64,000 nt of DNA, taken from contig JAQGDQ010000025.1 in NCBI GenBank assembly GCA_030141605.1, positions 664,907 to 728,906 of the forward strand. Direction: 5' to 3'. Below the pieces are notes generated by a model that did no database searches, was not told the DNA's origin, and saw only the letters and a program-made list of their open reading frames with translations. This document shows positions 19,401-61,254 of the stretch, piece after piece (positions within the stretch are counted from its first letter, which is position 1; each line of letters begins with the position of its first letter). This stretch comes from Tubiluchus corallicola (Eukaryota > Animalia > Priapulida). The position numbers and the translations under genes were made by a program.

Positions 19401-22285
19401 GCTGCATTTTTCAGCACATTCTTCATAATTATTGGACTCATCATCATTGTTCTAAATATGCTTGTTGTCACTGCTATTCTCAAATATAAAAAGTTGCAAA
19501 CAATGTCAAATTGGCTGGTGCTTAATTTGTCAGTGGGTGATGGATTGTTTGGCAGCATGGCACTGATGCTTGTAGATGGCGTTTTGCACATGAACGTAGT
19601 TTCTGAAAATAAGTGCTTATTTATTGTGGTGTTCTCACATATTTGTGGCACATGTTCAATCACAACCCTTATCGCAATCACAGCAGAACGTTATATTGCA
19701 ATAGTACATCCATTTTTCCTTTCAAAAATACAATCTTCACACATTGTTATTCTCATTACTATGACGTGGATATGGGCAGCATTTTTTGGATTGATTATTT
19801 TGTATGGACATCGCATGACAAGTCGACTTGTTTACTGTTCTTTTTACAATATGACACATCCAATGTTTTTCATTGCTTTTAACATACATGGTATTGCAGC
19901 AATGTTGTTAATTTTCATTGGCTATGCAAGAATTATGTTAATTGCAAATCGCCACCAAAGACAGATTAATCCAGTCTCACAACAGAGTTCTCAGTTACTA
20001 CAAAACATCAAGTCTGCAAAGATAATGTTCATTGTTGCTGGGACGTTTGCGATCTGCTGGATACCAATTAATGTAACAGGCATGTTTTTCATGTATGCCA
20101 CTGACCGAAAAGAAAACTTCTGCGTGGAGTTTTTTTGCTATGCTATGGTCTTTATTAACTCAATGGCCAATCCATTGATATATGCTTGGAAACATAAACA
20201 TTTTAAACTAAGCTTTGCACACATGCTGATGTGTAAGTCGGGGGAGCCAAATTTGAGATCCTTATAAATGTTATAGGTAATAACCATTTATGTTGCGAAC
20301 AGCTAAAACAAACTGTTCACATTATGCATGTTAAAATTCTGCGTAATTTGCAGAAAAAAGTATGGGCTGTTGTACACTTTTATTAATGGTAACGTTGGTG
20401 TTAAATGTTGGAACTGTTATTTATCATTTTTTGATACCATGCTTATAAGTAAGTCTTTTTTTACAAAATTAGTCTTAATGTAAAACTGACAGTAGAGTTA
20501 GGATTTCTTGTTTTTGTTTTTTTATTCTTAGAATGTCTATTAGGTGCCAGTAAACCTCCTACTCTCACTACAGGTGAATGTACCATAGATGTTGTTTACT
20601 AGTTCTTAATCGATGCATCTCTTGATTACAGGATTAAGACGAAGCATCTCTAAATCTGTAACATTAAGTTTGAACTCGTCATGCCTCTTTGAAAATGCAG
20701 CACAAAATAGACTTCATTATATAAACTTGCTAAACTATCCAAATCACCTACGGTTGACTCAGACAAGGTTTTTATCAAAATGTTTTACTCCTGCTCAAAG
20801 GTGAGTTACTTTTGTTATATTGCATCTTTCACAGCTTTCACTTGCGTAAAGCTAGGACTCCATCTACCTGTAATGCGTGTTGGTTGATGGCATAGTGTAT
20901 ATGTATTTAAACACGTGGAAAAGAAGCATTAAGATGCATACATAATGTGTGCTGCATGATTTATATGCAATTGTTTATTAATGCATTCTCATATTACCAC
21001 ATTTGAACCAGTCAGTACGCATCACGCATTAGAGATCACGAATCACTTATGCATTACATGGAATCCTACCTTAACATCACACTGTAGACACTCGGCACAC
21101 AGCAAGGTGCTATGCAGCAGTTGGACACACAGCTTACTAAAGTCGGTTTTTTTTGCGGAAAGATGGGAAGATAACTTATTGTTAAGGATATTCCTTTTTG
21201 GTAAGGCATTGTTGTTTGTGCAACGCCACACGTCAGAGGATAGTTTTCAATAGTGAGATAATTTCTTGTCCTACCACAACCATGAATATTAGTAGACTGC
21301 TGGACAGTAAAGTGCATGTAGAAAGGGAAAAGATTGACTGTTAAATTTTTTTTTTGAAAGAGTTTACAGCTTTTTACTTGATCTTCAAGATCACGTTGAT
21401 CATGCTGAAAGCTGAGCTTGTCAGTAAATTCAGGGCTTGCAATAACATACATATGCATGTATCTGCATGCGTATCATAAGGCTGACCTTAGGTTTTGTGT
21501 AGTACACAGCTGATAAATGAATTCAACATGCAACTTTCTTTCTTCTACGAAGTGCTTTATGACGTGTGCAGACATAGAGAGTTCTCTCGCAACTTCTTTC
21601 TGAGAGTAAAGTTGCAACGTGTGAACGGCTTAGCAACTTCTCTTGCAACTTGGTGCAACATGTGAACAGTTTAGCAACTTCTCTTGCAACTTGTTGCAAT
21701 GTGTGAACAGCTTGGCAACCTCTCTCTGAGAGAAGTTGTGCAACAAGTTGTGAGAGAAGTCTCTATGTCTGAACGGGCTATTAGAAAAAGATTCTGAGAA
21801 AAGGGAAACGCAACTGCTTTATTTTTCCGCAATAAACACCCCAATGGAACTTCCAGTCGAAATATGCCATTTTAAAAGTTCTTGGGACGCTTTTTTAGCA
21901 CCCCTGCATTTAATTACAAGTGCTTTGTTTATTTTTCAGCAATCTTTTAGTTCAGAAAACTGGACCACTTTTGCAGCCACAAAGACAAATTGTCAAATCA
22001 TCAAGAAATAGAGGCAAAATGAAAACGAAACACTCAGTCGTTAATCGATTTTACCGTTTGCAGTCAGGTAACTGGATTCGTACCTACGTTGGCCGCCACA
22101 AGAAGTTGTGGAAGCGGCGAAACAAGTGGCGATGGCGAATGAAGCAGCACGTATTTCTGTCATCGAGTCAGTGCAAAAAACTAGACAAGATGGTAGCTCC
22201 CTTTTGGAAAAGACCTAGATATTATGTTGACGATATTTATGAACCGTATCAGCCACGAACTTCACCGGAATTTCCACATTTATAG
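10473..22285 (+). CDS. MRPL35: Mitochondrial ribosomal protein L35 (bL35m), 3 exons, about 183 aa
   Basis: Exon 3 (21940-22285) encodes GKMKTKHSVVNRFYRLQSGNWIR..GRHKKLWKR..LDKMVAPFWKRPRYYVDDIYEPY, the bL35m signature. Exon 2 (20632-20800) and exon 1 (10473-10509, MSAACFVRGVIS) join in phases 1 and 2 with no stop. Exon 1 is the least certain assignment. Confidence 0.9.
11185..11435. repeat. Degenerate AT-rich minisatellite (about 35-40 bp, TTTTGAAATACATTGTAG(G/A)AAAATGAAAT)
   Basis: About 6 imperfect copies. Confidence 0.6.
11990..12100 (-). mobile_element. CR1-like ORF2 3' end remnant
   Basis: KYFFNHRVLWNGLPQ / EAITVNQFK remnant on minus. Confidence 0.5.
13136..14062 (+). CDS. Class A (rhodopsin-like) GPCR, copy 1, intronless ORF, orphan (adenosine/MECA-like)
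   Basis: 7 hydrophobic segments, N-glycosylation sequons, LSVGD (TM2), C3.25, ERY, W4.50, ECL2 Cys, CWMP, NSMVNPLIY, helix 8 and a C-terminal Cys. Ser at 3.32, so not a canonical aminergic receptor. Confidence 0.95.
   Translation: MNNGSNQSVTSNTFVLATAFFSTFFIIIGLIIIVLNMLVVTAILKYKKLQTMSNWLLLNLSVGDGLLGSMALMLVDGVLHMNVISANKCLFIVVFSQICGTCSVTTLIVITAERYIAIVHPLFLSKIQSSHIVILITMTWIWAAFFGLIILYGQRMTSRLVYCSFYNAVHPKYFIALNIYGITAMLFVFTGYARIMLIANRHQRQINPVSQQSCQLLQNVKSAKIMFVVAGTFAICWMPINVTGMFFMYATDRKENFYVELFCYAMVFINSMVNPLIYAWKHKHFKLSFAHMLTCKSGEPNFKSMERF
14240..14440. repeat. (GTT/GCT)n compound repeat downstream of GPCR copy 1
   Basis: Seen directly; two higher-order units. Confidence 0.9.
15856..16773 (+). 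CDS. Class A GPCR, copy 2 (tandem paralogue)
   Basis: Intact 305-aa ORF, closely similar to copy 1, all class A motifs intact. Confidence 0.95.
   Translation: MNNGSNHSVTSNTFVFATAFFCTFFIIIGLIIIVLNMLVVTSILKYKKLQTMSNWLVLNLSVGDGLFGSMALMLVDGVLHMNVISANKCLFIMVFSQVCGTCSVTTLIVITAERYIAIVHPFFLPKIQSSHIVILITMTWIWAAFFGLITLYGQRMTSRLVYCSIYNMITPMHFIAFSIYGITTMLLIFIGYARIMLIANRHQRQINPVSQQSSQLLQNIKSAKIMFVVAGTFAICWMPINVTGMFFMYATDRKENFYVELFCYAMVFINSMVNPLIYAWKHKHFKLSFAHMLTCKSGEPNFEFF
16950..17232. repeat. (GTT/GCT)n compound repeat downstream of GPCR copy 2
   Basis: Seen directly; three higher-order units. Confidence 0.9.
17890..18552 (+). pseudogene. Duplicated fragment of MRPL35 last exon plus 3' UTR
   Basis: Near-identical to 22139-22782 (ATGAAGCAGCA...AGAGCAGTTTTT). 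Flanked by a 32-bp direct repeat at 17855-17886 and 18550-18581. Confidence 0.9.
19350..20267 (+). CDS. Class A GPCR, copy 3 (tandem paralogue)
   Basis: Intact 305-aa ORF with ERY, CWIP and NSMANPLIY. Confidence 0.95.
   Translation: MNNSTNQSVTSDTFVLAAAFFSTFFIIIGLIIIVLNMLVVTAILKYKKLQTMSNWLVLNLSVGDGLFGSMALMLVDGVLHMNVVSENKCLFIVVFSHICGTCSITTLIAITAERYIAIVHPFFLSKIQSSHIVILITMTWIWAAFFGLIILYGHRMTSRLVYCSFYNMTHPMFFIAFNIHGIAAMLLIFIGYARIMLIANRHQRQINPVSQQSSQLLQNIKSAKIMFIVAGTFAICWIPINVTGMFFMYATDRKENFCVEFFCYAMVFINSMANPLIYAWKHKHFKLSFAHMLMCKSGEPNLRSL
21561..21778. mobile_element. Palindromic Harbinger-like MITE with internal about 40-bp tandem units
   Basis: TIRs CAGACATAGAGAGTTCTCTCGCAACTT / AAGTTGTGAGAGAAGTCTCTATGTCTG; internal repeats of GCAACTTCTCTTGCAACTTG..GTGTGAAC. 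Confidence 0.75.
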
Positions 22286-25200
22286 CCATTCGTCTTGAAA
22301 TCATTGTTTGACAATTTGAGCGTGAAATGCCTCATTCGTGATAAATTATCACAACTATTGCTGACTCTTGAGGAGTTTCAAATGTTCTGAACACAAAAAA
22401 TAAAAACAACATTTAAGAAATACTGAATTGCTTTTCAGTATAGTACCCATATCTGTATGTTATATAGCCAAATGATATTGATTAGTAATGGGACAGACTT
22501 TTGCTTTTAAAACTGCTATTTTGGAAAATAAGAACTTTTTATGATGCAGAGCCAAGGAAAGTCAATGTCCAGTGTGGAAAGATGGCTAAGAACATGCACG
22601 TACCTGTTAAACTTTATTTGCACATGTCTCCTTAAATAATTTATGTACTTTAGTATGACCTACTTTGGATTCTGTGCGAATGTTCTTTTTCAGTACAATG
22701 CTGTCTTTTGCACATAAAGTAACATTTGTTTGCAAAAGTGTGCCACTATTTCTGCAGTCTTTGTTTATTAAGAGCAGTTTTTTCATCAAATTAGTTTGTC
22801 AGTTTTAGTTTAACAAACTAGTTTGATCGTGTAAATAGCAAAACTGACAAACTTTTAGTTTGAGAAACAAAGTCTGATGGTATCAAACTGTCTTGAATTC
22901 AGCAAACAAAAACTGACATACTCAGACCCAATAGCCAATAGCATCGTTTGTCATTATTAATTCAGCAAGTGGTATAAATGTTCGACGATCAGCATTATTG
23001 GATATTGGTTGGTATTGGAACCTGAAGGCTAGAAACAGTGGTAATATAAAGGACCTTTTTGATTTTGCTTACAAAAAGAAAACTGCAATTTTACTGTACT
23101 GTTTTCTACCAATCAACAATTTGCAACAGTACTGTAGGTGTGTTATGCAGGTTGTTTGTTAGTTACACTGAACTTCTTGCTATAAATAGTCAAATATTGC
23201 GGGTGTGACATATGCACACAATTGAAAAACTCACGCAGCACCTCAACTTTTAAATCTTTGAAAATCAAACTGTGACTGCCACTTTCAATTCTTTGCTGTA
23301 GTTATTTTTTCATCCAAACTTTTAACACTTTTTTTTCCAATTTCTCCTTTTTTAATTGTTCAATCCGAAGACAGGCCAATATTGACACCATAATTTGATT
23401 GACACCCAATGTTGAATATTGATTGCCAGAGTTAGTGAGTAAAGTTTGATGTCGTCTAAACACACATCAGTTTTTAGATTGACAGTTTTCGTTTGTCAGT
23501 TTTAGATTGACAGTTTAAAAACTGGTCGTGTAAACAGACCACTAAAGATTCGCTACCAACCCACTGACAATCTTCAGTGATGTTTCATTTGTTTTTCTTA
23601 ATTTCACTGTCTTATATGGCAGAGTAAACAGCAATAGTTGTTCTAATACTTTGTTGTATGATTACTAGCTCATTTTAATAACCGTGCCATTATATGTTTA
23701 TTTTATGCATTTGCAATCATATTAAGTGAAGCAGTACTACTGGCCTGCTGCTGCCATCTTTTGGGATTTTGAAACTTCATAATACTAAATAGAAAATCCT
23801 TGCTGTAGTTTGTCATTGGCATTGGTTGATAAAGTTTTGTATAATTTATTGTCGTGTCGGCATACCAGAACTCTTTATGTCTGAGAAGTTTATTCAAGTT
23901 TCAGTTTGAATTGTACGACACCAGCAAAAACATGTTACCTCATGTATTTCTTGTGAGGTTTCCTAAATGAAAGGGCAGGCGGAATTGCGCTTGATATAGT
24001 TATAGTAGGCCTACACCTGCACAGGTAATAAAAATAATCGTTTGTATGCTGTATATTATTTATAATTTTCACTGTAGCATAACAAATTGCCAGTGATGTA
24101 GAGTTTCCAGAAAATATTTTAAATACGTTTTCAGAAACAATTGCAAACCGTTTCCACATACATTAAATTCATACTTTTGAAAATGAACCTGTGGTTTATA
24201 CCAATGAATGCAGGTTTTTAGTATAAAACAAAGGCGTTGTAATGTGCAGCAACATTTACTGATAATCTTTTTGCTAAATCTGTGTAATAGACATTGTAAT
24301 AAAAACTTCTTTATTTTCAAGGAAATCTATAATAAGTATTTAGATGTACTTTTGACATGTAAAATGACGAGCATGCTAATGCTGGGCTATAAAGTTCATG
24401 AAGAAAATGGCTTCAGTATTTTTGCAGTGTAGTGCAAGTGTATTACTGAATTGTTTTTATACCCGTATAATTGTTGTACATGTAATTTGTAGCTACCATT
24501 ATTAGGAATTTTATATTAACTGTTACTCATGACAGTTTTCTGATAGTACTAGTGTAGATACTTTTGAAGTTTTTCGTAATGAAATTGTATCTTTTCTCAT
24601 GAACTTTATGCCTTTATTATGTTTCTGTTCATCAAGAGTAAAAATATACCACCAATATTAAAAGAAATTACAACTTGAGCTGAAAGCATATTTTCTTGTA
24701 ATGAATTATTGTGCCTGCGTTTGCATTTGTCACAGATACTGTGTAGCTGCCTACCTGATTTGTCATAATAAATGAAATGTTCGTTTAACGAAGACTAACA
24801 GAATAAATCCAGGCACCAGATTAATTAGATGTTGCAGTAATTATGACTAATCGAGTTCGAACCTGCAGGTGACACAGGTCTGTTGTGCTGTTGTAATGCA
24901 TTTTCAGTAATATTTTACCTGTACTAGTAAATTTTAAGAAAGTGATAATGGTAATGATATCTTTTTGATGGTGTATAAACATTAAACAAGCTAAGCATTT
25001 TGAAACGGCAACAGAGAGAAACAAAGGGAAGGGGCACCAGAAAAGTGAAAGACGGCGAGGAAGAGATGTCTGTGTACATCTTGAAAGCACAATGTTCTGT
25101 GTTCATGTCATGATTTGACTACAATTTTTCAGTTCCTCTTTTTTCAGTTAATTAACTGTTTAAGTAGTTGTAAATCTGTTATTCTGCTTAATGTGTTTGT

Positions 25201-42700: not shown

Positions 42701-44742
42701 AGGAAGTGGCCATAATCTGTCATGCTTAGGGTCTCAACAGGAGATAATACCGGGATTGGCTGCAGTAGCCAAGGGATTGGAAAAGTCAAGGGATCCAGAA
42801 CCTCGGGATTTGCAGTTGAATTGAGACCCCTATCATGATATCCACATTCCAAAATCTGTCCTGCAGTTAATCAGGCAGGCAAAATCCAATCAAGAGCTGA
42901 GCTTAAATAGTGGTAACCTAACCTGCCTGCGTGAGATTAATAGCTAACAATTCAGTGCATGAGCTTCAGAACAGGTACACTTCTTTGACAACTGCCTTGC
43001 TCGGAACTTGGTAAACTGTATCTGATATCATTATTTTCGACCTTTCCTGTGTCCCTCGCTGTAGTAATCAGATGTTGTATCCCACAGTAAAAAAACGAAA
43101 TTTCCAGAGCTATTGCAGTCGAACAACGTGCCGAAAACTGTTTTAATTGTGACGTTAATCGTCTAAAAAACATTCTGCCAGGTCGCCTCACAGCTTCTCT
43201 ATAGCACATATGTCAAAAAAACGTATTGTACAATTTTCATTTACTTTTATAATAAAATTGTGAAATGCACCGCGGCTCCTTTTAGCATCTTTATATTAGT
43301 GACTGCAGAATAAAAATAATGAACGATGGCGTCTTAGTAATAAATTCGGCATCATATGAATGTGAGGTTTGTGAGGCCTAAATTGGCAGCAATTTCATGC
43401 TTCAACATTAATGCATCATATATGTAGTTGCAACACGAGATTTCCAATTAAATGGAGACTACTAAAATGAATTTTTAGCTAGAATACTATGCGTCGACAT
43501 TTTGAAATTGATATTCGGCAAATTCATTTGCTTATTTGCATGAAGAACTGATTTGAGTGAACATGTGAACATTGATGACTATAACTGGAGAATGAAAAAT
43601 GAAATTTAAGTAACGGCTTCAACGCGAACTTTCACCATTGAAAATACTAATAAGATTACTGGAAATTTCAGAAAAGATTTCAATATATAGGTTTTAATAT
43701 GATATTTATCGTTTATTCGTTTTATATCTAATACGCTCTAGTTTGCATGTATTTTTCCACTTATTTAATTGTATAACTTAATGATTTATCGTTTTGCATA
43801 AAAATCTCTCCAAAGAAATCATTAATTGGCAAATGATCTTGGCAGTAAATTAACAGAATCATTTTTTTCACTAATAAAAATTACCATAGACAAATACTCT
43901 GGTTGTACTATGTTATGAGAAGTATTTGCTCTGACAAAAAGTGTTTTGCGTAAAAGCGCGTTCACATTCATGCGGTTATACAGCCGATGATAGGATTGCA
44001 TAATATTGTGTCTCGTTATGAGGCGTTCACATTCATTGGCAAGAAATGTATCAAAGCTATCAATGATAAACTTGAATCTTGGTACTGGCAGCAAGAAATG
44101 AACCGGGCTGCGCGGACTGCAAATAGCAATAACCTTAGAACGTATAAACTTTTTAAAAATACTTATAAGATGGAAAATTATATGTTGTTAATTGATATTC
44201 CAAAGCATGGCAGAACCAGCTTAAATAGATTTCGTATTAGTGCTCATAAATTAGCAATTGAAATCGGTAGATAACATAAGCCGAAAAAAATACCTGTAGA
44301 GCAACGAGTATGTAAAATTGTTGTTTGAACAAAGTAGGGGACGAATTGCATGTAATTACTGAATGCCCAGTGTACGTTCATGCACGGGAGGTATCCTTTG
44401 GTACCCTTTCTAATTTCTGTCTAACTTTCATTATATGCCGCTTATTGACTCCTAATGAGAAGTTCCTGTTTTTAAGTGCAGCACAAGACGTACAACTTAT
44501 TAAAATTAATGTTAGATTGGTTCACAACATATTCGAAGACAGGCTTGACCGAGATAACTCATAGCAAGCCTGACTGACTGACTAACTGTAATAATATTAA
44601 ATTTATATATGTATGTTTGTTGCTCTGTTGTATGTTTTTTGTGCTTGAACCATTATACCACATACATGGTTTCTTTGTTTCAATGTAGAATGTTTCTTTT
44701 TTAAGTCTGGTTTTTCTTTGTCTCTTGTAATTTGCTTAAAGA

Positions 44743-49784: not shown

Positions 49785-52297
49785 TAATAATAATAATAAT
49801 AATAATCTTTTATTTATCTTTTAACACACGCACAGTTACAATACAATTAATTTAGCAACAAAAATGTGAAGAAAGGGCAGCGAAAGACCAATTGGTCATC
49901 TAGTCAGCTGCCCTTTGGTTAGTGATGAACATTTTTTATAGGCGCTATGCTAGTGTATTAGTGTTAGTACTGCTTATAATAAATAAAGTGTTACGAATGA
50001 CATAAAATTGATAATGATATGCTTATAATGTGTTAGTACAATTCATACACAGTAATAATAAGTGCATAATAATAATAAAAAAAATCAAACTGAACATAAC
50101 TGAAATAAGGACTGAAACAAGAACTGAAATAAAAATCTGACATCAGAAACATAATAACAATGGTAACTGAAATTTACTTTATAACACAAGCATAATGTAA
50201 AAAAAAAAATACAGAGCGAGTTTTGATGATCTGATGTAAAATGAAGAGGCAGATAGATAGGCAAAATACTGTACGCTTATCTCAATAATAAGTTTGCAAG
50301 AGTTGACATTTATATAATTTACTTAACTGATAGATACTAGTCGATTGCTTAAGATCATCTGAAAGAGTATTCCATAGAATTGTACCATTATGTTTTAAAG
50401 TTTGTAGACCTTTTGTTGTGTTAAATCTTTCCTGAAAATAGTTTTGTTTGGTAGCTGCTCTCGTAGAATACTGGTGAACGTCACTAATCTTTTTGAAATA
50501 ATTGCCGTATAATTTAGGTAGAATGCCCTTTTTATAGTTGAACATGAATTTCGCTAACTCAAGCTTATAAATTTCATTAATTTTTAATAATTGCAAAGCA
50601 TAATAGGAAGGGGTAGCATGATCTCGGAACCCAGCAAAAGTCATTGTTTTGATAATTTTGTTATGTGCTGATGTAAGAGGTTTCAAAACAGATTTTTTTG
50701 CTGTGCCCCACGATAAGATACAATAGTTAATGTGTGGGTACACAATGGCAAAGTAAATCATTTTTAGTATATCCGTGCTCAAGTAATGCCTCAATTTAAA
50801 AAATATACCTGTAACTTTGCTTACTTTGTAGGTAATATTTTTTATGTGTGTTGACCAATTAAGGGTGTCATCTATGTAGACGCCCAGATATTTTATGTCT
50901 GATACTTGTTCTAATAAACAGTCTTGCATGGATACTGTTATAATGGAGTTTTCATTGTTTTCAAATTTATTTCTTATGATCATAAATTTTGTTTTATTAT
51001 AGTTTACTGTTAACTTATTTGTACGCATCCATGTTTTAATTTTGATCAATTGTTCATTACTTCTAAGCTCAAGATTTTGCGTATCGTTGTCTGCTAAGAA
51101 GAGGTTAGTGTCATCAGCAAAAAGTCGTGTTTGCATGTTAGTACAAAGAGGGAGGTCATTTATATATATCAGGAAAAGAAGTGGACCCAAGGTGGATCCT
51201 TGAGGTACACCACACTGAATTGAGCATTGGTCAGAGGCAAAATTCTCAACAACCGTAAACTGGTGTCTGTTTGTAAGATATGACTGGAATAGTTTTTGCG
51301 TGATTCCACGGATACCATAATAGTCCATTTTGTTGAGTAAAATGTCGTGTTGAACGGTGTCAAAAGCTTTTGTTAAATCAAGAAAAATGCCGCAGGTAAG
51401 TAATTTATTGTCTAGGTTTGTCAGAAGATTGTCTATGATTTCAGCAGTTGCTAATATTGTGGAATGATTTTTGCAGAAACCGAAGTGAAAACATGATATT
51501 GTATCATTTTTGATTAAATATGTCATCAGGCGTTTATATAAAATTGACTCAAAAATTTTGGCAATGGGTGATATGAGTGAGATAGGTCGGTAGTTGTTCA
51601 GCTCATTTGGATCATCTTTTTTATATATGGGGATTACTTTTGCCAGTTTTAAAGTGTCGGGGAATGTCCCAGTCAGAATTGACGCATTAAACAGATTTGT
51701 AAGCGGAGCTAAAATTATGTTTTTAGACATTTTAAAATATGTAATTGGAATGTCATAAGGGCATTTTGCTTTATTGGGATCTAGTCTATCAATAGCTTGG
51801 GAAATCTCGATTTCGCTAACTGGTGTGATATAGAAAGAATTTTCTTGGGGATGCATTAAATAGTCTGTATACTTACAGTTTTCGGGTTGTGTTATGCGTG
51901 ATGCCAGTGATATACCAATGTTTGCAAAAAAACTGTTAAAAGCATTAGCTTTATGGTGCGGGTCACACGAGGTTGTGCCTTGGTAACGAACTTTAGTTGG
52001 CATTATACTAGCTGTCTTTTTTTTAATTTTGAGAAGTTCATTGATAGTGCTCCAAGTTTGTTTCATGTTATTTTTGTTTGCAACCAAGATCTGGGAGTAA
52101 TACTTCTTTTTGGATTCATGTTTGATGTGATTAAGTTTGTTAGAATATGTTTTATATCAATTTTGCTTATACAGCGAGTTGGATAACTTGTGTGTTGTAT
52201 ACATACGGCTTCTTGTTTTAATAGAATTAAGAATGCCGGGAGTGATCCATGGTTTAGCTATAGTTTTTGAGTTTTTCCTTGATAACGTTTTGAGTGG
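49785..52297 (-). mobile_element. 5'-truncated CR1/L2-group non-LTR retrotransposon
   Basis: ORF2 with RT motifs (NYRPISL, FLDLTKAFDTV, GVPQGSTLGPLLF, LFADDT, KYLGV), upstream KPWIT segment in the same frame behind one TGA (52157-52159), about 500-nt 3' UTR ending in AATAAA plus (ATT)n, and GGCTAA duplication at 49779-49784 / 52298-52303. Confidence 0.92.
50282..52087 (-). CDS. LINE ORF2 reverse transcriptase (partial, lacks endonuclease)
   Basis: 601-aa ORF with complete RT domain motifs. Confidence 0.9.
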   Translation of the reverse strand: MVANKNNMKQTWSTINELLKIKKKTASIMPTKVRYQGTTSCDPHHKANAFNSFFANIGISLASRITQPENCKYTDYLMHPQENSFYITPVSEIEISQAIDRLDPNKAKCPYDIPITYFKMSKNIILAPLTNLFNASILTGTFPDTLKLAKVIPIYKKDDPNELNNYRPISLISPIAKIFESILYKRLMTYLIKNDTISCFHFGFCKNHSTILATAEIIDNLLTNLDNKLLTCGIFLDLTKAFDTVQHDILLNKMDYYGIRGITQKLFQSYLTNRHQFTVVENFASDQCSIQCGVPQGSTLGPLLFLIYINDLPLCTNMQTRLFADDTNLFLADNDTQNLELRSNEQLIKIKTWMRTNKLTVNYNKTKFMIIRNKFENNENSIITVSMQDCLLEQVSDIKYLGVYIDDTLNWSTHIKNITYKVSKVTGIFFKLRHYLSTDILKMIYFAIVYPHINYCILSWGTAKKSVLKPLTSAHNKIIKTMTFAGFRDHATPSYYALQLLKINEIYKLELAKFMFNYKKGILPKLYGNYFKKISDVHQYSTRAATKQNYFQERFNTTKGLQTLKHNGTILWNTLSDDLKQSTSIYQLSKLYKCQLLQTYY

Positions 52298-54149
52298 GGC
52301 TAAGCACGTACGTAGGTCACCAAGCCGGCAAAAAATTGAAAACAGATACAATTTTAATAAAGTATGCAAACATAAAACTGAAATGAAGTTGACAACAGCA
52401 TTAGTCATTGTACTATAGAAATGTGTTACATTTTTTAGTGTAGGGTATGAGAAAGTGCATTAGTTAAGTCATTCCTAAAATCAGTGACCTCTGGTGCTAG
52501 AAATAACTGATTTTTTGTTTAATGGCAGGCATCGTAAATTCTTTTTTATAATTAGAATTCAATTCCAATTTAAAATCATTAAAGAATTTAAATGGCATAA
52601 ATCATATGTATAGCAATGAAGTTTGTTTTATACATAATGTCGCATTATTTGAACATGTATCACATAACACGTATGCTTGAACCGCGAGACATGCACGTAG
52701 TGACGTAGAGCAAAGAAGAGAGCCGGAGTACCAGGTGTTAGGTGTGCTTAGAACACCAAAGCACCTTCATCCGGCTTAGAACTCTCTAACTTGATTAAGT
52801 TAGCTAACTTGCATCCAATTTTGCGTAACTTGTTCGCAAATGCTACAAGTATCTCTCTCTCTTGAATAGGCTTCGCCATTTTTGTCTTGGCATATTTAGT
52901 AATATGATAATTAAATTTACATAAAACATGCATTCTGTGTTTGTACTTGAGGTGCCTACCCTTTCAGGGCATGTCAGCCAATACTTTCAAATGGTTCCGT
53001 CAAATATAGAACATAGTAGCATCATTTCTTCTTTTGTTTTATATACCTTCCAAGCTGTAAAATAAGCCTACTTGTGCTAGTCACACTTTAAGATTTTTGC
53101 TCTTGTATCTGCTGTTATCACAGTAGGTGACTAATGTCACAACATTATGTCATATAAATTGCACACGACTCCACTGAAGAAAAATCACTAATTACAAATT
53201 TGACTTTTTCATGTTCAGCTGTAATCAAATATTTCTGCTACATGAAAAATTTTTGGAACCCAAAAGTTAAAAGATAAATTCAAATTATTCATACTGATTA
53301 TTTTCGTTTTTTACCAATGATTTACCCATTGAAAGTTATATCCTAAAACTGTACCTCTTGTTATTGGTAATTTTTAGTAGGTGTTGAGCCTTTTAGCTAT
53401 TATAAAGTCATTTAACATCAGGTTTGGTAGCCTAATTATACCTTTAATTAACTTTTTGTCCTAAAAACGCGACAGTAATTATTTTAAAACATCTTAGGAG
53501 TATTAAAGATCTGACCCGATAAGTAACAGTAAAGTCAAATGTCAGTGCCCTTTTCTACACCAATTACTCAGTCTAGTCAGCCTAAAGCTAAAGTATCAAA
53601 TAAACAGACAAGGGCGTAATAAAGAAAATTGCAACGTCTGCAGCTCTTATTTTTCAGAATTCTTTTGCAAAAACGTGGGTAATAACATTTCAAACGAACA
53701 AACTGAATGTACCAAATGGAAAATTCGTTTGACGAACGTTGACTCGCAAGCAACATTGTGACCACGTTGAATTTATTATGTATTTGTTGTCGCTTCGAAA
53801 TCAGACAAACAGTTTTTAGCGCATTCCGGCATGCAGACGTTTGACAAAGTGACATGCGAGGTGTGAATGCGTGTGCGTTCGTAACTCGTGAGTGATGGCA
53901 CCTCCTGTTATAATTGTAGTTGTGATGGGGTTCACTGCCACCATTTGCAAAGTAATTTTTGAACGTTTCGTATCTACTACCTTCATACTGCACACGTTTT
54001 TCTCCAAAAAAATTCAAAACATTTTTATGCATCAAATAACCACAACTGTAACAACTAATGTACGATATAATTCTCTTGAACATTAAAACTTGTTGAGCAG
54101 GTTTACTTAAGTTAATGTCTGGCTTAAATTTATGACTTCATTCATATAT

Positions 54150-54420: not shown

Positions 54421-56181
54421 ATTTTGTTAATTGTATCGCGAAGAAATGTCCATGTTGATAGTTGAAGATAAAAGCCTGGAACAATGTTCTAGGGGAAATC
54501 TAGGCCAATCCCTGCCATTCCTGGTGCAATACAAGTAACTATTTCATCACCCATGCACACAGCTGATGTTCAATGACGCGCTACTTACAAGATGTCGCCG
54601 CGGGCTGCGTCTTTGTTCGAAACTCATGTAAAATTAAGCAGTTTTCTAAGAAAATGTTCAAAGGGAGAGCAGAGAATCTCATTGCAAACAAAAATGACAA
54701 AGCCAAACCGGTCTATCGTAAAGAAAATTCCGCTCTGAAACTTCGGCAAGTCGTATGCCTAAATAGTCTGTAAATTCTTGTGTCACTCCCGAGTGTAACA
54801 ACCTGTCTTTATCCGGGTTTTATGAAGTCATACCCAACCTTCAATTTTGCTGTTCCACGAAACAAGGACAATTACAGCGCAGTAGCCAGCTATTTCTAAG
54901 ACGGCAATGCTGCTCATTACAATGCAGCAGCGCGCTATTTCTATAACGACATGCTTCAAAGCACACTTCCTGTCAGAAACTGTGCCCATAAGGTCAGAAG
55001 TTATTGGGTCATTCAACCAGTGTAGATTATCAATTATTATAATTTTGATAAAAAAGATCTCTTCTTTATTACACAAAGACTATTTTTTGAGAGTAATGAA
55101 TCGTTTTTACATGCATGGTTAAAATTATTTCAGATTAACATTCAGTTGTTATTGATTAAACTGATTTCGTAAATATAATTCTCATACATGTTACTCAATG
55201 CGCTGAATGTAAAAATGCAAAATTGTTATTTACAACTAAAGAAAGCAGTGTTTTTGTACTCACTGCAAGGTTCGTCAGATTATGACCATCCCACAAAGTT
55301 GGATTTCAGTCAGAAATGAAACGTTAGTCAGTTAGAAATCAATCAATCAATCAATTAACCTTAACTCCCGCAAAGCGAACCTCGCTTGGGCATATTTTTT
55401 TGAAAAGAAAATGACGGACGTAAGCCAGTAGACAGCACGAAGCTACCATAACAAAATTAAGCTTTTGCAGTTCATTCAGAAATTCTGCTATTCTAACATA
55501 CTAAGTTTTTGTGTTTAACTGTGTTATGTAGAAATTAATTAATCATCAGACCCATTAGCAACAGCATTGAAGGTGCTTTCATAGCTTTAATCCACAAGAT
55601 TATATTTAAAGAATACTCCAGTTTTCATTCAAAATGAGCGCACCCAAGCGTTGTATAATCGCGATTTTAACTGACTTTACTAACTACACGAGACGCTTAT
55701 CACAATTTCATTGTTGAAACTTTAAGACATTTTTCTCAAAATTAATATGAAAGTAAGTTCAATTTATCGATCGGCTCATTGTGATCCCACAGATAAGAAT
55801 GTTTGTTATTACTAAAACAATAATAGAATGCACCAAGAAAATGTCATTATTTAGCATTCAAAAAACAAGCTTGGTAGGCATGTGCACGAAGTTTTGGAGG
55901 TTCTTGAGTTTGCAATGATTTCAATGAAATGCAAATTAAACTGCAGACTGATCGAGACGTATGAAGTTTTAACGCTAATATTGAGTACGTGAATTGCTTT
56001 AACAGTACTTTGATGTAATAAGATTAGTATCCTAGTCTCACTCGTTATTTCCGTACCCCGGTCCGTTAGTATTGCCACGTTCTTCACTCGTTAGTTTTAC
56101 CCACAGTCGTAGAGGCGAAAGCGTGTTTACGAAAACGGTGCGCGAGCTTTTCTGGAACTTCTAGACAATTATTAAGTAAAC

Positions 56182-59100
56182 ATGGTGACGCCCAGAAGCA
56201 CGCGATACGTAACTGTAAAAATTATCATAATTCTGTTAGTACAAATAAACTTATACGAAACTCAAAACTTTTATACAATTGATGATTCAAGTGAATTAGG
56301 AAAGCGTTTTTCTGGAATTGGTGCTGTTAGTGGAGGCGGCGTAAGTAAAAACTTTGAAGTATACCCGGTACTTAGTTAAAATAATTCGTGTCTTAAATTT
56401 TTAAGACCCATAATATTGTTTTATACCCTTTTCTTTTTAATCGTACGTAGCGGTTGTGTAGAACTTAAACTTAGAAAGACATTCAGCTTGACATTGTGAC
56501 AATGAGTGTTTCTGTTTCTATTATGCATAAATTGATTGATTGAATATCTTTATTGACATAAACATATGATAATAACAATGTAATAATTCATGTGTTAATT
56601 AATACTAAAAAAAACCCAACCCACATTAATAGCTGATATAGACAAAAATAACCTCCAGATTACTGATGTTCTCTGATGATATCGAATTAGTACAATGATT
56701 AATTGGATGATGACATAATTTCATCATCTTTAGAACAGCAAAATCTTCATTGGACACATACGTACAAAGAATTCAATGTAAAATTGCAGGTTTGTCAAAA
56801 TAGTATATTTCAGTGGAGTTTCAAGAAGCGAGATGTTGCCAAATCAGAACAGAATCTTTGTCTGTATGCTTTTGTGCATTAGTCATGAAACAGAATATTT
56901 TTAATACATATATTTATATGGATTTTCTAACAAGGGATGTTACTGAAACAAAAATTTCGTTTTGGTTTGCCGATAATAATTGTCCTTTCAGTTCATCTTC
57001 ATTTTCGTCGAAATTATTAAATTTCGTAGCCGAGACTTTAGGTAAAATTTTTTCGGAGATTTTAGTAATATTTATTCAGCTTTACTATTTTTTCGTGGAT
57101 GTTAAAAATTGCAGAAAAATTTTGCTTAAAATAATTGAAGTAAAGCGTAATATATCATTTATTTAACTTTTTGTGCCATTTGTAGTATGCTTTACGGCAG
57201 TGCGGCATATCTTCAGTGCTGACAACTGTGAAGCTTTAAGGTCTCTAGGCACAATCAACCGAAATATCAAAGTGTAATTTGAATAAAAACAAGTTTAGTT
57301 TCATTTATGAAATCTTCTTCTTCTTCCCAGCTTTTCCCTATTCGGGGTCGCCGTTGTGAATGAGTCTTCACCACGCATTCCTGTTGTTGACCATCTCTTC
57401 ATTTATGTCTTCAATTCCCACAAGATCTTCACCGACTCTTCTTTTCAGGTGTCCATACCATTGCAATCTTGCGAGGCTTCCACTACTTTTACTGTTCCTC
57501 TGATATTATTTCTAATTTTATCTCTTCTTGTTATTCCTACCATCCATCTCAACATCCTCATCTCCACCACACCCATTTTCTTCTCTTCGGTCTTCTTTAG
57601 AGAAGCTGCTTCCAGCCCATAGATTAGAGCAGGTCTGACCACTTCTTTGTGGACTTTCCCTTTAAGTCTCACCGACTCATTCATAGAAGGTTTTGGCACA
57701 GTTTTTACAGGCAGATGCCCTTCCTGACCCTAACCCTTCCTATTTATCCGGGCTTGGGACCGGCACTGAGTTGAGCTGGCTTGCCCCTCCTCCAGTGGCT
57801 AGGTTAGTTTCATTTATGAAATATTGGCAACAAAATATTTACAAAATAAAATTTTTCAGCTTTTTGAAGCATCGTGTTCTTTAATCATAAACATTGTTCT
57901 ATTTATTTGGTTAAGATTTTTCGCTTAACTACTTCGATCAAGCTTGTATTAGAGCAAATAAAAGCAAACAAGCAAAAACAAAGTATTTTATTTGTTTCAG
58001 AATTTTTTTCAGTTTTGATAGTAGTTGGTTTTTCAAAAATGATTTTTTTCATTCGTTTCGGTATCGGCTTCCTATGTTTCATAAATTTCTGTTTCAGTTC
58101 CGGTTTCTAATTTCAGTTTCGGTAACATCCCTGTTACTAGTTGATGAAGTTAAGCAGCAGATGAGCAATAACAATTTGCACATTATTCTAAAAAATGAAA
58201 AACCTAACTACCCGACTTATGATGTCGCACCTATAAATTTTGATTAAGTTTATAATTTTATGATTTTGGCATTGGTTTGACAAAGAGTTTACCTTTCAAA
58301 AGATTGATAGCGATCTTCGCATGTTCATTAATGCAAACCACCAAGAACGTTTTTAATGCGTAATGTAAATCTCATATTTTCTAAAAAGCTAGTACAGAAA
58401 GTTTCGTGTGCCTGGCCATCGGAAAGCTGTATTGAAAAATTATTTTTCTGACACATGTGTAATTGTGTATGCGCAAAGCAAAATGTCAAGAATTTTTTTC
58501 TTGCATTCTCACTTGTGACCAGGGGCGTCGTGCACCAAAAAAAATTGGGGGGGGGGCCCGACTGTATATAATGGCGGAACTTAACTGTTTAAAAAACGTA
58601 TAATTTCGAAAAATATGAACAGTATTTAGCATTCAAGAAAAACGATTTATTTATTCCCAACTGGCATTTAACTTAAAGCTATAGCAACGGAAACTTAATT
58701 AAAATTAAAAATTAAATTAAAATTTAATTAAGTATTTATTAGCTGTCAGAAATCCGACGCAGAACATCACTCCAGAAGAGCTCTACCACAGACTTCAAGT
58801 CCATATTCTTTGTTTTCTCAGCCTGAACTGCAAGGATCATCGGGTCACTCAGTCGTGCCTGACTCATTGTACTGCGGAGAGCATTCTTGACAAATTGCGG
58901 GAACACGGTTGGACTTGAAAAATGAAGTCAGATTGGACTGCCTTGACATCGTTTAAGAAATATAGCTAAAATCGCAGCGAAAACTAGCAAAGATTTTCCT
59001 AGCAGGAGAGAAATGTTGAAATCTGCTCAAAATCACGCCCTTTTATGCAGCAAACTCGTGGGAAAGAGTCGCTAAGGACTAGCAAAGAGTCGGTAATGTC

Positions 59101-61254
59101 CAATCAGGAGGTGGCTGAGCCGTGGCTCATCAATTTGTATCTCCCAAACCGACTCTCTGGTACTAGGCTAGCTCCACAAACTGACTCTCTGGTACTAGGC
59201 TAGCTCCACAAACTGACTCTCTGGTACTAGGCTAGCTCAACATGACTTCAATGTTTGCATTGTTTTTGCTCTATTATTTCACTTATTCTCTATTATAACA
59301 CACTGCTGAACGAAGCTCGAGTGGCTAACTGAGCCGTTTTGTTAACTAACAGTCTTTTGTGCAAAGACGCTAATGCTACTCAACAAGCTGCTTTGTTAAC
59401 TGTTCCTGCCTGCCTCCTGAATAGATTACATGCAAACAAATTAACTACATCCTGACTTTCAGGTAAACACATACTCATGCTCATACTGTTCGCATTTATG
59501 GAGCGCTGGCCCGCTATTGCATGTCAAAAAGTCGGAAATAAATTTGCTTACCCGTCTCATTACGAGCCGCTGACACCCTTCAAATTTTTAACATTTTCTA
59601 AAAAAATTGGGGGGGGGGGCCGGGCCCCTATGGCACGACGCCACTGCTTGTGACACTTACTTGAACCACGCCTAGTGCAATACGTACATGAATTAGTTGG
59701 TATTACGAAGCAAGGTGCTGTTTTGCACATTCATTAAAGAAAGAACCAACCCTCGAGCAATATTTTTTGCATTTTAATATAGTCCTACAATTAGAAATAT
59801 TGAAACTACCACACAATGTGCATGCATAAAATGTGTTGCTTATAACTGCGAAAGAAATTTGAATAATTCTTATCTCCTGCTAAATGAACATCGCTGTGGG
59901 CATATTCGAAAAAAATGACGCAAGCTGGTGAACAGCACGAAGGCATGTAGCAAAACTTCTGACATTCACTGAGAAGGTTTTCTAAAGCGTATTCTAGCTG
60001 ATTAAATCTATGTGTTTAACTGTGAATAATGATTTTGCAAATACTCATGCAAGTGTCTTCCCTTAGTATTTGAGAAAAATACTAAAAACTTTCAGTAACA
60101 AACTGTAATAACTGCTTCATGTAGTTAGTAAAATCAATATAAAGTCACGATCATTTCATGCTTGGGCACACTCATTTTGAATGAAGAACTGATTTCATTT
60201 GATTACCAAACAATGCATATACCTATCCCACCAGGTGTTAGAGCAAACACTTTTCATTCAAAATGAGTGTGCCCAAGCGTGAAATGATCGTGACTTTATA
60301 TTGATTTTACTTACTGCATGAAGCACTTATAACCGTTTATTATTGACAGTTTCTAACATTTTTCTCAAATATTAACTAAAGATACTTGCATGAGTATTTG
60401 CATAATTATTATTCACAGTTTCGCACGACCTTGGAAACTTAATCCCTAACTTTTGAAGTTTAAAACGTGCACAAACACTTTGGGACAAGTAAGTGTGATG
60501 TGGAGCCAGTGTTAAAGAAAAGAAGTAAAGTCTGAGTTGAATTTCCACTCTGTAAGTTTAGACTGATGAGTAGGAATCAAATCTGGGTTGTTTCCTCACG
60601 AGTCCGAATCGAATTCTAGTTCTTAGTGTTAGCAGTATTAGTTTCACAGTTTAATATTTATATTTTTTAAAGCCGTCGAAGTCGCATTCTGATTCGAATG
60701 TGAGTCAAGTCCTAGTCATTAACATACAAATCTAAGTTGAGTAGCAGGTCTTTCTGTTTTTTTATGCTGGAGTTTGAGTCAAGTCCGCTTCGGCAGAAAG
60801 TGCGACCTGAGTTCGAAGCAATGACACTGTACTCCAGCAGTGTGTGAAACAGTTGCCCATCCTCCCGCGATCATCCCTAACCTAAGTCCAATATGTTGTG
60901 GGATGTGTAACACGTGTTTTGCGCCAAAAAAGCAAATTTTAATTTGCTGGAGAATTAAAGAGCAACTGTCAGACTTGCCGACATTTCAATGGTTTGTAAT
61001 GGTTACCACTTCCTGTACAATATCGGTACTTTTGAGTTTTTTCAAACGTTAAACCTTTTAAAACAACCTATTCTTGTTAGAATTGGCAACTTTGTATGTT
61101 GTTGATTTGTATCTACAAATGTTGATCATTGCATATAGAACTACATGAGCTATAATTAATCCATACATTCTTATTTCCATTTCAGGCAACTTCCAAATTG
61201 CTTATAAACTATAACGAGACCTATAGGGATCAGATACTAGACTACCTTTTTAAG
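56182..61254 (+). CDS. GALC: Galactocerebrosidase (GH59), exons 1-2 (gene continues beyond the right edge)
   Basis: Exon 1 (56182-56340) has a signal-like stretch plus [23 protein letters not shown]. Exon 2 (61186-61254) encodes [23 protein letters not shown]. Both match the GALC N-terminus ([31 protein letters not shown]). Confidence 0.93.
57314..57805 (-). mobile_element. Non-autonomous RTE-derived retroelement (bipartite, SINE-like) with 19-bp TSD
   Basis: RTE C-terminal remnant (KGKVHKEVVRPALIYGLE..EMRMLRWMVGITRRDKIRN), (GAA)n tail, TSD TTAGTTTCATTTATGAAAT at 57295-57313 and 57804-57822. Confidence 0.88.
57730..57806 (-). ncRNA. Twister ribozyme (type P1) remnant at the 5' end of the RTE element
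   Basis: Minus strand: U^AA CCUA GC CACUG..CAGUG CCGG UCCCAAGC CCGG AUAAA UAGG AA GGG. P2, P3, P4, T1 (CCC/GGG) and T2 (GC/GC) all form. The core GCCGGUCCCAAGCCCGGAUAAA matches the Oryza sativa twister as recalled. The catalytic-G position (57738) reads A. Confidence 0.8.
58520..59646 (-). mobile_element. Internally deleted hAT transposon
   Basis: TIRs CAGGGGCGTCGTGC / GCACGACGCCACTG, perfect 8-bp TSD CTTGTGAC, minus-strand remnant KNALRSTMSQARLSDPMILAVQAE (hAT C-terminal dimerisation region) at about 58740-58892, and 3 x 32-bp internal repeat at 59145-59238. Confidence 0.88.
60018..60420. repeat. Fold-back element: about 168-bp inverted arms with about 67-bp spacer
   Basis: 60018-60185 is the reverse complement of 60253-60420, with the inner part nearly perfect. 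A diverged single arm lies at about 55622-55760. Confidence 0.85.

What the first reader, a model, noticed from the sequence alone, without database searches (positions are those of the whole stretch)
57730..57806. Twister ribozyme defining the 5' end of a short RTE-derived retroelement in GALC intron 1
Seen (minus strand): UAA-CCUA-GC-CACUG[24 nt]CAGUG-CCGG-UCCCAAGC-CCGG-AUAAA-UAGG-AA-GGG. P2 CCUA/UAGG, P3 CACUG/CAGUG, P4 CCGG/CCGG and both pseudoknots fit the type-P1 twister consensus. The element boundary given by the TSD falls at the U^A scissile position (57806/57805), as expected if the RNA template was generated by self-cleavage. The 5' P1 strand is absent. The general-base G position (57738) is A, so this copy is probably inactive, which matters little for the antisense host gene. 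Established: twisters are reported at RTE 5' ends in Schistosoma. A ribozyme-headed 0.5-kb non-autonomous family in this lineage may be undescribed (inference).
Basis: partly seen in the sequence, partly recalled or inferred. Interest (0 to 1): 0.8.

Follow-up and report, generated by a model that had tools for sequence, protein, structure and literature searches.

The report
Twister-headed miniature RTE retrotransposon copy
This is one slightly damaged copy of an abundant 0.5-kb jumping element whose inspectable relatives begin exactly at the cut site of a twister-type RNA that likely cuts the element's RNA free before copying, a trick already published for a blood-fluke retrotransposon and here carried by a shortened, non-coding derivative.

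Summary
Observation confirmed. 57806-57730 (minus) is a type-P1 twister fold (52.4 bits, E 5.8e-10, below Rfam's 67.2 cut-off) heading a 492-nt internally deleted RTE-like element, antisense in GALC intron 1, nested in a 0.7-kb inverted-repeat element. Corrections: the 19-nt duplication overlaps the ribozyme's first AA, so this copy alone does not fix the boundary; and G>A copies often still cleave (PMC11662667), so 'inactive' is unproven. No cleavage was measured. Mechanism as published for Schistosoma Perere-3 (twister) and Drosophila R2 SIDEs (ribozyme-headed deletion derivatives); I found no paper on a twister-headed non-autonomous RTE, but this scan noted 7 similar elements in other genomes. 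One extra: a covarying P3-tip hairpin with an AARCCA loop in 6 of 8 RTE-type heads, function untested.

The parts
57730..57805 (-). Type-P1 twister ribozyme, 3' cleavage product part (starts at AA); general-base position 57738 is A in this copy, G in relatives
   Evidence: cmscan 52.4 bits, E 5.8e-10; pairs read directly; 57738 variant in laid contigs
57805..57806 (-). Predicted scissile U^A bond; family 5' junctions fall here
   Evidence: depth 5633 -> 4221 -> 454 across 57801-57809 in X1; loose ends at 57805/57806 with unrelated flanks in X1 and X3
57773..57786 (-). P3-tip hairpin, 4-bp stem closing an AAGCCA loop; G-run 5' of it is longer in most relatives
   Evidence: folding and motif position, alignment folding, pair counts, loose poly-C ends at 57787
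57690..57729 (-). Rest of the RTE-type 5' UTR, with the CAGGAAGGGCATC motif (57726-57714) shared with autonomous elements
   Evidence: 88% over 78 nt to L003 and 88% over 65 nt to L004 heads; motif position
57670..57689 (-). Main internal-deletion junction: an ATG at 57684 runs in frame into the C-terminal ORF remnant; about 860 codons missing relative to P0004
   Evidence: DNA match to L003 ends at element position 141, protein match starts at 57672 = P0004 residue 864; bridged by divergent contigs X3 record 19 and X4 record 26
57344..57672 (-). C-terminal RTE ORF remnants with two further deletions (about 10 and 29 codons), a frameshift and a stop
   Evidence: 35% identity over 65 aa, E 6e-12, to P0004; tblastn to L003 C-terminus
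57314..57352 (-). RTE-type 3' end ending in a GAA-repeat tail
   Evidence: 77% over 52 nt to the 3' end of the RTE copy in L003; direct reading
57804..57822 (.). Target-site duplication, 5' copy (19 nt, last 2 nt shared with the ribozyme's AA)
   Evidence: empty-site paralogues join 57297 to 57812
57295..57313 (.). Target-site duplication, 3' copy
56933..58132 (.). Host repeat into which the element inserted: dispersed element with 24-nt terminal inverted repeats (about 0.7 kb without the insert), MITE-like
   Evidence: inverted arms 56933-56956 / 58109-58132, 88%; loose ends at 56933 and 58133
56182..56340 (+). GALC exon 1 (host gene)
   Evidence: phmmer to mouse galactocerebrosidase 4ccc, E 0.0014
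61186..61254 (+). GALC exon 2 (host gene)
   Evidence: Pfam Glyco_hydro_59 E 6.7e-07; 4ccc E 3.3e-05

Best explanation
The stretch is a twister ribozyme fold at the head of a repeated, internally deleted RTE-like retroelement, and it likely cuts the element's RNA out of read-through host transcripts so that an autonomous RTE partner's enzyme would copy it starting at the cut. Steps: (1, inferred) a source copy is transcribed from a neighbouring Pol II promoter; (2, inferred from the junctions and from Perere-3 assays) the twister cleaves at N^AA, with P1 supplied loosely by whatever flank lies upstream or dispensed with; (3, inferred) the retained C-terminal/3' UTR segment and GAA tail recruit an RTE APE-RT protein in trans for target-primed reverse transcription; (4, shown) full-length insertions begin at AA directly against a 17-19 nt duplication. 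This copy landed in a MITE-like repeat in GALC intron 1, antisense, carries a private G>A at the general base and at least 11 other listed differences from most relatives, and is most likely an impaired passenger with no host role.
For: Full-length twister-P1 model match. Relatives have G at 57738: 727970/732400 depth in X1 (99 contigs), 97%, >99.9% and 95% in X2-X4 (4 runs = at most 2 samples). Of 15 listed contigs from other loci, 8 end at 57805, 6 at 57806, 1 at 57808; loose-end flanks agree only 0.49-0.57; U at -1 in 10 of 25 loose ends, about what base composition gives. Summed depth about 6-12e5 over the element in X1 against about 170-180 for single contigs of the flanks, without a drop at the main junction. 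Autonomous single-ORF APE+RT elements with the same head exist: L003, L004 (P0004, 1019 aa, RVT_1 and Exo_endo_phos), L010, L001, L009. Loose ends at 57408 read as the undeleted RTE C-terminus, so less-deleted relatives are in the same runs. Published precedent: TSDs adjacent to the AA and in vitro cleavage of P1-poor T-variants (PMC8501958 sections 17-19, 22).
Against: No cleavage or RNA 5' end was measured. About 98% of the family depth stops in a G-run at 57787-57788, so most 5' ends were not seen. Score is below the Rfam gathering threshold. A pseudoknot-free model gives P2 a probability of 0.00-0.06 in this copy and favours a competing helix between 57807-57801 and 57736-57730 in 13 of 16 window choices (the model cannot score T1/T2). 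Depth is a sum over overlapping contigs and is no copy number.
Confidence: 0.86

Rival explanations
1. The master copy has an internal promoter that starts transcription at or near the first A; the ribozyme is inherited baggage and the 5' boundary was fixed once, by an old cleavage.
For: A recent burst from one master would also keep G57738 and a sharp 5' end. The L1Tc/NARTc head is both promoter and ribozyme (PMC3383444, abstract start in search listing). Kojima expects Pol II transcription governed by 5' extremes (PMC5786205 passage).
Against: The end sits on the exact scissile bond in 14 of 15 listed junctions; distant families (L003, L010; fish and plant entries in the PMC8501958 supplement) show the same boundary and intact catalytic core.
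Confidence: 0.08
2. This is a one-off deleted copy of a full-length RTE (deletion during or after insertion), not a family that moves as a 0.5-kb unit; the depth comes from full-length and truncated autonomous copies.
For: Only 2 listed divergent contigs bridge the main junction; 1088 loose-end rows were not shown; X3 depth is about 20-fold higher at the 3' end than the 5' end.
Against: X1 depth is flat across the junction (8.0e5, 7.7e5, 7.6e5), no loose end at 57670-57690 is among the best-supported rows, and the bridging contigs differ from this copy at 9 and 8 letters, so they are other copies.
Confidence: 0.04
3. The ribozyme has been kept for a host role, such as cutting an antisense transcript of GALC intron 1.
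For: The insertion is also present in a second sample (X3 record 17 runs from the flank into the tail).
Against: This copy has lost the catalytic G that relatives keep, is antisense to GALC and sits inside another repeat.
Confidence: 0.02

Closest known systems
T-variant twister ribozymes heading Perere-3 of Schistosoma mansoni (Liu et al. 2021, PMC8501958; abstract, sections 17-19 part 1, 22 and supplement parts 31-32 of 104 read)
   Same: Type-P1 twister at the 5' end of an APE/RT non-LTR element; TSD abuts the AA; P1 5' strand comes from the flank; GAGGG-UU 3' strand. The supplement lists a catfish entry with nearly the same head as here.
   Different: Perere-3 is autonomous; this unit has lost about 860 codons. 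Long P3 with AAGCCA tip and a CAGGAAGGGCATC motif, not in the listed Sma sequences; GAA tail instead of GTAA. No cleavage assay here.
R2 SIDEs and R2/R1 hybrid SIDEs of Drosophila (Eickbush and Eickbush 2012, PMC3414825; abstract read)
   Same: Non-autonomous element made of a 5' self-cleaving ribozyme joined to the 3' end by internal deletion, mobilised in trans.
   Different: SIDEs use an HDV-like ribozyme and insert site-specifically in 28S rDNA; this one uses a twister, is dispersed and makes 17-19 nt duplications.
Bipartite non-autonomous RTE LINEs, e.g. RTE-N2_Lch, RTESINE1/2, Bov-A (Kojima 2018, PMC5786205; parts 1-2 of 5 and passages read)
   Same: 5' and 3' parts of an RTE joined by internal deletion, no tRNA head (none found); the paper already suggests that 5' ribozymes explain why such elements keep the true 5' end.
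   Different: The paper never mentions twister (0 occurrences) and cites HDV-like ribozymes; this element keeps about 330 nt of C-terminal coding sequence with two more deletions rather than UTRs only.

Membership tests
Twister ribozyme, type P1 (RF03160) | Covariance-model match over the whole model | tested here: met
   52.4 bits, E 5.8e-10, positions 1-68 of 68
Twister ribozyme, type P1 (RF03160) | Score at or above the gathering threshold 67.2 | tested here: not met
   52.4 bits; intact heads such as L003 also fall short at 61.3, so the shortfall partly reflects long P3 and missing P1
Twister ribozyme, type P1 (RF03160) | P2, P4 and both pseudoknots T1, T2 | tested here: met
   All pairs Watson-Crick in this copy; P2 shows two-sided changes in 3 of 4 pairs across 8 heads, P4/T1 invariant partly because they were in the search pattern
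Twister ribozyme, type P1 (RF03160) | General acid A and general base G | tested here: inconclusive
   A present at 57805; base is A at 57738 in this copy (not met) but G in 95-100% of relatives' depth (met for the family)
Twister ribozyme, type P1 (RF03160) | P1 helix | tested here: not met
   1 of 4 pairs; P1 is reported dispensable (PMC11662667 passages; PMC5113685 part 1)
Twister ribozyme, type P1 (RF03160) | Self-cleavage at N^A | not testable with these tools
   Only indirect: 5' junctions at 57805/57806
RTE-clade non-LTR retrotransposon derivative | Homology to single-ORF APE+RT elements at both ends | tested here: met
   Head 88% to L003/L004; C-terminal remnants E 6e-12 to P0004, which has Exo_endo_phos and RVT_1 in one 1019-aa frame
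RTE-clade non-LTR retrotransposon derivative | Placement in the RTE clade by RT phylogeny against named references | not tested
   No named references available; the RTE label rests on recalled features (single ORF, short 3' UTR, microsatellite tail, C-terminal motif)
Bipartite non-autonomous LINE / SIDE-like element | TSD and 3' tail of a TPRT insertion | tested here: met
   19-nt duplication, GAA tail, empty-site paralogues
Bipartite non-autonomous LINE / SIDE-like element | Multiple copies share the same internal deletion | tested here: met
   Flat X1 depth over the junction and 2 listed divergent bridging contigs; copy number not determined
tRNA-headed SINE | tRNA-derived head | tested here: not met
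   No tRNA gene in the window; no other Rfam hit; the first 120 nt are ribozyme and RTE 5' UTR

The most novel reading that the evidence does not exclude
The head is more than a cutter: in a sub-lineage of twister-headed RTEs the P3 tip is a conserved, covarying hairpin with an AARCCA loop at a fixed distance (22-23 nt) from the core, which together with the downstream CAGGAAGGGCAUCC motif forms an undescribed cis-acting RNA module (binding site for the RTE protein at the 5' end, or a switch pairing with the GGUU after the catalytic G) that a parasite element must keep in order to move.
Probability: 0.2. Interest if true: 0.6.

Novelty: new variant of a known kind. Interest (0 to 1): 0.3.

Why it matters
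Twister ribozymes have one published eukaryotic role, in one flatworm retrotransposon. A successful non-coding derivative in another animal, with 5' ends on the scissile bond, extends that role and parallels the R2 SIDEs with a different ribozyme class. It gives a small testable substrate for asking what 5' RNA an RTE protein needs. It is an extension, not a new principle, and this particular copy is probably irrelevant to GALC.

Tried and rejected
Whole-genome family consensus: no genome held; replaced by two lays of public contigs. No RNA holder listed; X5 and X6 (same species label) laid nothing, which is no evidence either way. X3's 3' bias might reflect an RNA library but its kind is not on record; not used. 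No second twister or RTE-head copy in the window. Viral-contig scans gave 3 phage twisters without RTE context and 2 chance motif matches (L012, L013), dropped. Organism: nearest named MRPL35 match is a nemertean at 54%, too distant to name the lineage, so 'undescribed in this lineage' cannot be checked against repeat libraries. Sigma-70 promoter scan is irrelevant to an animal and at chance level. Pairing of the AARCCA loop with the downstream GGC/GGCU was considered and rejected as inconsistent across heads. CHiTA supplement, which might hold cleavage data for heads of this type, was too large to read.

Full report
Observation. Infernal matches the whole twister-P1 model at 57810-57730 with 52.4 bits, E 5.8e-10, below the curators' 67.2; 3 of the 4 P1 pairs are non-canonical. 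It is the only Rfam match at E<=0.5 in the window. The position corresponding to the general-base G is A (57738). GALC exon 1 (56182-56340) and exon 2 (61186-61254) match galactocerebrosidase, so the feature is antisense in intron 1. The organism is an animal of unresolved lineage: the nearest named match of its MRPL35 exon is a nemertean protein at 54%; no genome is held.

The element. A 19-nt direct repeat at 57804-57822 and 57295-57313 brackets 490-492 nt. The repeat includes the U^AA of the cleavage site, so this copy alone does not locate the 5' end. From 5' to 3' the element holds the twister, a UTR motif CAGGAAGGGCATC (57726-57714), an ATG at 57684 fused to C-terminal ORF remnants, and a GAA tail. 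Pattern scans returned 5 metagenome loci and 3 loci that are apparently animal contaminants of bacterial assemblies; 6 distinct ones besides the degenerate L002 show RTE-type APE/RT coding sequence downstream. L004 carries a single 1019-aa frame with Exo_endo_phos and RVT_1. The window element matches the heads of L003 and L004 at 88% and residues 864-960 of P0004; relative to the L003 C-terminus two further deletions of about 10 and 29 codons are present. The RTE label rests on this homology plus recalled clade features; no tree was built.

The family. Contigs of four public DNA or unknown-kind runs (at most 2 samples) were laid at 80% likeness. Summed depth in X1 is 6-12e5 along 57296-57779 against about 170-180 for individual flank contigs; the tool warns that this is no copy number, but it shows a highly repeated unit. 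Depth does not fall at the main junction, and two listed divergent contigs bridge it (X3 record 19, 9 differences in 160 nt; X4 record 26). At 57738 relatives read G on the element strand in 99.4%, 97%, >99.9% and 95% of depth (X1-X4), so the A is private to this copy, one of at least 11 listed differences (124 rows not shown). Contigs of paralogous empty sites skip from 57297 to 57812, showing a true insertion; the target is a dispersed element with 24-nt terminal inverted repeats at 56933-58132. Loose ends at 57408 (6 contigs in X1, 10 in X3, agreement 0.95-1) continue as undeleted RTE C-terminal sequence, so longer relatives exist in the same runs.

The 5' end. A second lay on 57750-57839 shows X1 depth of 5633 at 57801-57803, 4221 at 57804-57806 and 454 at 57807-57809 (X3: 1286, 1045, 42). 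Loose ends lie at 57805 (10 and 5 contigs) and 57806 (5 and 5), with flanks that agree only 0.49-0.57; one lies at 57810. Of 16 listed pieces one is this locus; of the other 15, 8 end at 57805, 6 at 57806 and 1 at 57808 (437 more not shown). The 5' end is therefore the AA of the cleavage product. The limit: depth falls from 3.8e5 to 6e3 at 57788 because most relatives have a longer G-run there (66 loose poly-C ends), so about 1.5% of the family was inspected. X5 and X6 laid nothing.

Mechanism. Most likely a source copy is co-transcribed from a host promoter, the twister cleaves at N^AA, and an autonomous RTE protein reverse-transcribes the RNA at a new site, leaving AA against the duplication. 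The junctions are shown; transcription, cleavage and trans-mobilisation are inferred. Against activity, a pseudoknot-free calculation favours a helix between the flank-derived CUAACCU and GGGUUAG that would bury the cleavage site (probability 0.65-1.0 in 13 of 16 window choices, 0.06-0.28 in 3). I read it as impaired, and antisense to GALC in any case.

An extra feature. A C-AARCCA sequence lies 22-23 nt before the core in 6 of 8 distinct RTE-type heads (window, L001, L003, L004, L009 = L011, L010; absent in L002, L005) and 0 of 3 phage twisters; it was not part of the search pattern. It caps a 4-5 bp stem with two-sided changes in 3 of 4 pairs (few, related sequences, structure chosen by me, so the shuffle counts are not probabilities). 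The Liu supplement (parts 31-32 of 104 read) has catfish and Sinocyclocheilus heads with AAGCCA, AAGTCA or AAGCTA loops, but 20 seahorse entries and several other fish heads with the same downstream context lack it, as do the Schistosoma examples. It may be a functional 5' module or only a mark of ancestry. A search for 'twister' with 'AAGCCA' listed 9 papers, none about this by title or abstract start, and no earlier scan note held it.

Comparison and novelty. Liu et al. 2021 (PMC8501958; abstract, sections 17, 18 part 1, 19, 22) show twisters at the 5' end of Perere-3 with TSDs adjacent to the AA, flank-supplied P1 and in vitro cleavage. R2 SIDEs are ribozyme-headed internal-deletion derivatives (PMC3414825, abstract; PMC6765202, passages). 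Kojima 2018 (PMC5786205, parts 1-2 of 5 and passages) describes bipartite RTEs and links their intact 5' ends to ribozymes without naming twister. Six searches listed no paper on a twister-headed non-autonomous RTE; the library lacks most subscription journals and Repbase/Dfam entries were not searchable. Earlier notes of this scan report 7 similar elements in other genomes (unchecked, not used as support). Verdict: real, correctly read, a new variant of a known kind; interest 0.3.

Noticed in passing
window 56933-58132: The retroelement sits inside a dispersed ~0.7-kb element with 24-nt terminal inverted repeats (88%); the repeat start and an imperfect 8-nt flank match look hAT-MITE-like (family label recalled).
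   Followed up: partly
window 57784-57792: Most relatives have a long pure G-run in the P3 arm where this copy has GGAGGAGGGG; it breaks assemblies and hides most 5' junctions.
   Followed up: partly
run X3: Depth is about 20-fold higher at the element's 3' end than at its 5' end, unlike X1; could be a 3'-biased RNA library or many truncated copies; library kind not on record.
   Followed up: no
L003:700-872: An RTE 3' end with GAA tail is followed after about 20 nt by a twister-headed RTE: tandem elements, where the ribozyme would separate units of a read-through transcript.
   Followed up: no
L009, L010, L011: Twister-headed RTE fragments inside bacterial genome assemblies (Alcanivorax, Breoghania, Thalassococcus records), most likely animal DNA contamination; L009 and L011 share the same family.
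   Followed up: no
window 12537-20421: Three tandem intronless rhodopsin-family GPCR genes (13130-14062, 15850-16773, 19344-20267) in ~83-85% identical duplicated blocks; a 660-nt piece is also duplicated at 22139-22782 in the MRPL35 gene region.
   Followed up: partly
window 50282-52459 (-): A LINE remnant with a 624-aa open RT frame (RVT_1), of another type than the RTE element; a smaller LINE-like fragment at 43954-44274.
   Followed up: no
window 60018-60420 and 55619-55745: A 400-nt inverted-repeat element (81% self-complementary) with a partial copy upstream of GALC exon 1.
   Followed up: no
L007, L008: Phage contigs with clusters of ribozymes: two twisters plus a twister-sister (L007), two twisters plus an HDV-like hit (L008).
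   Followed up: no
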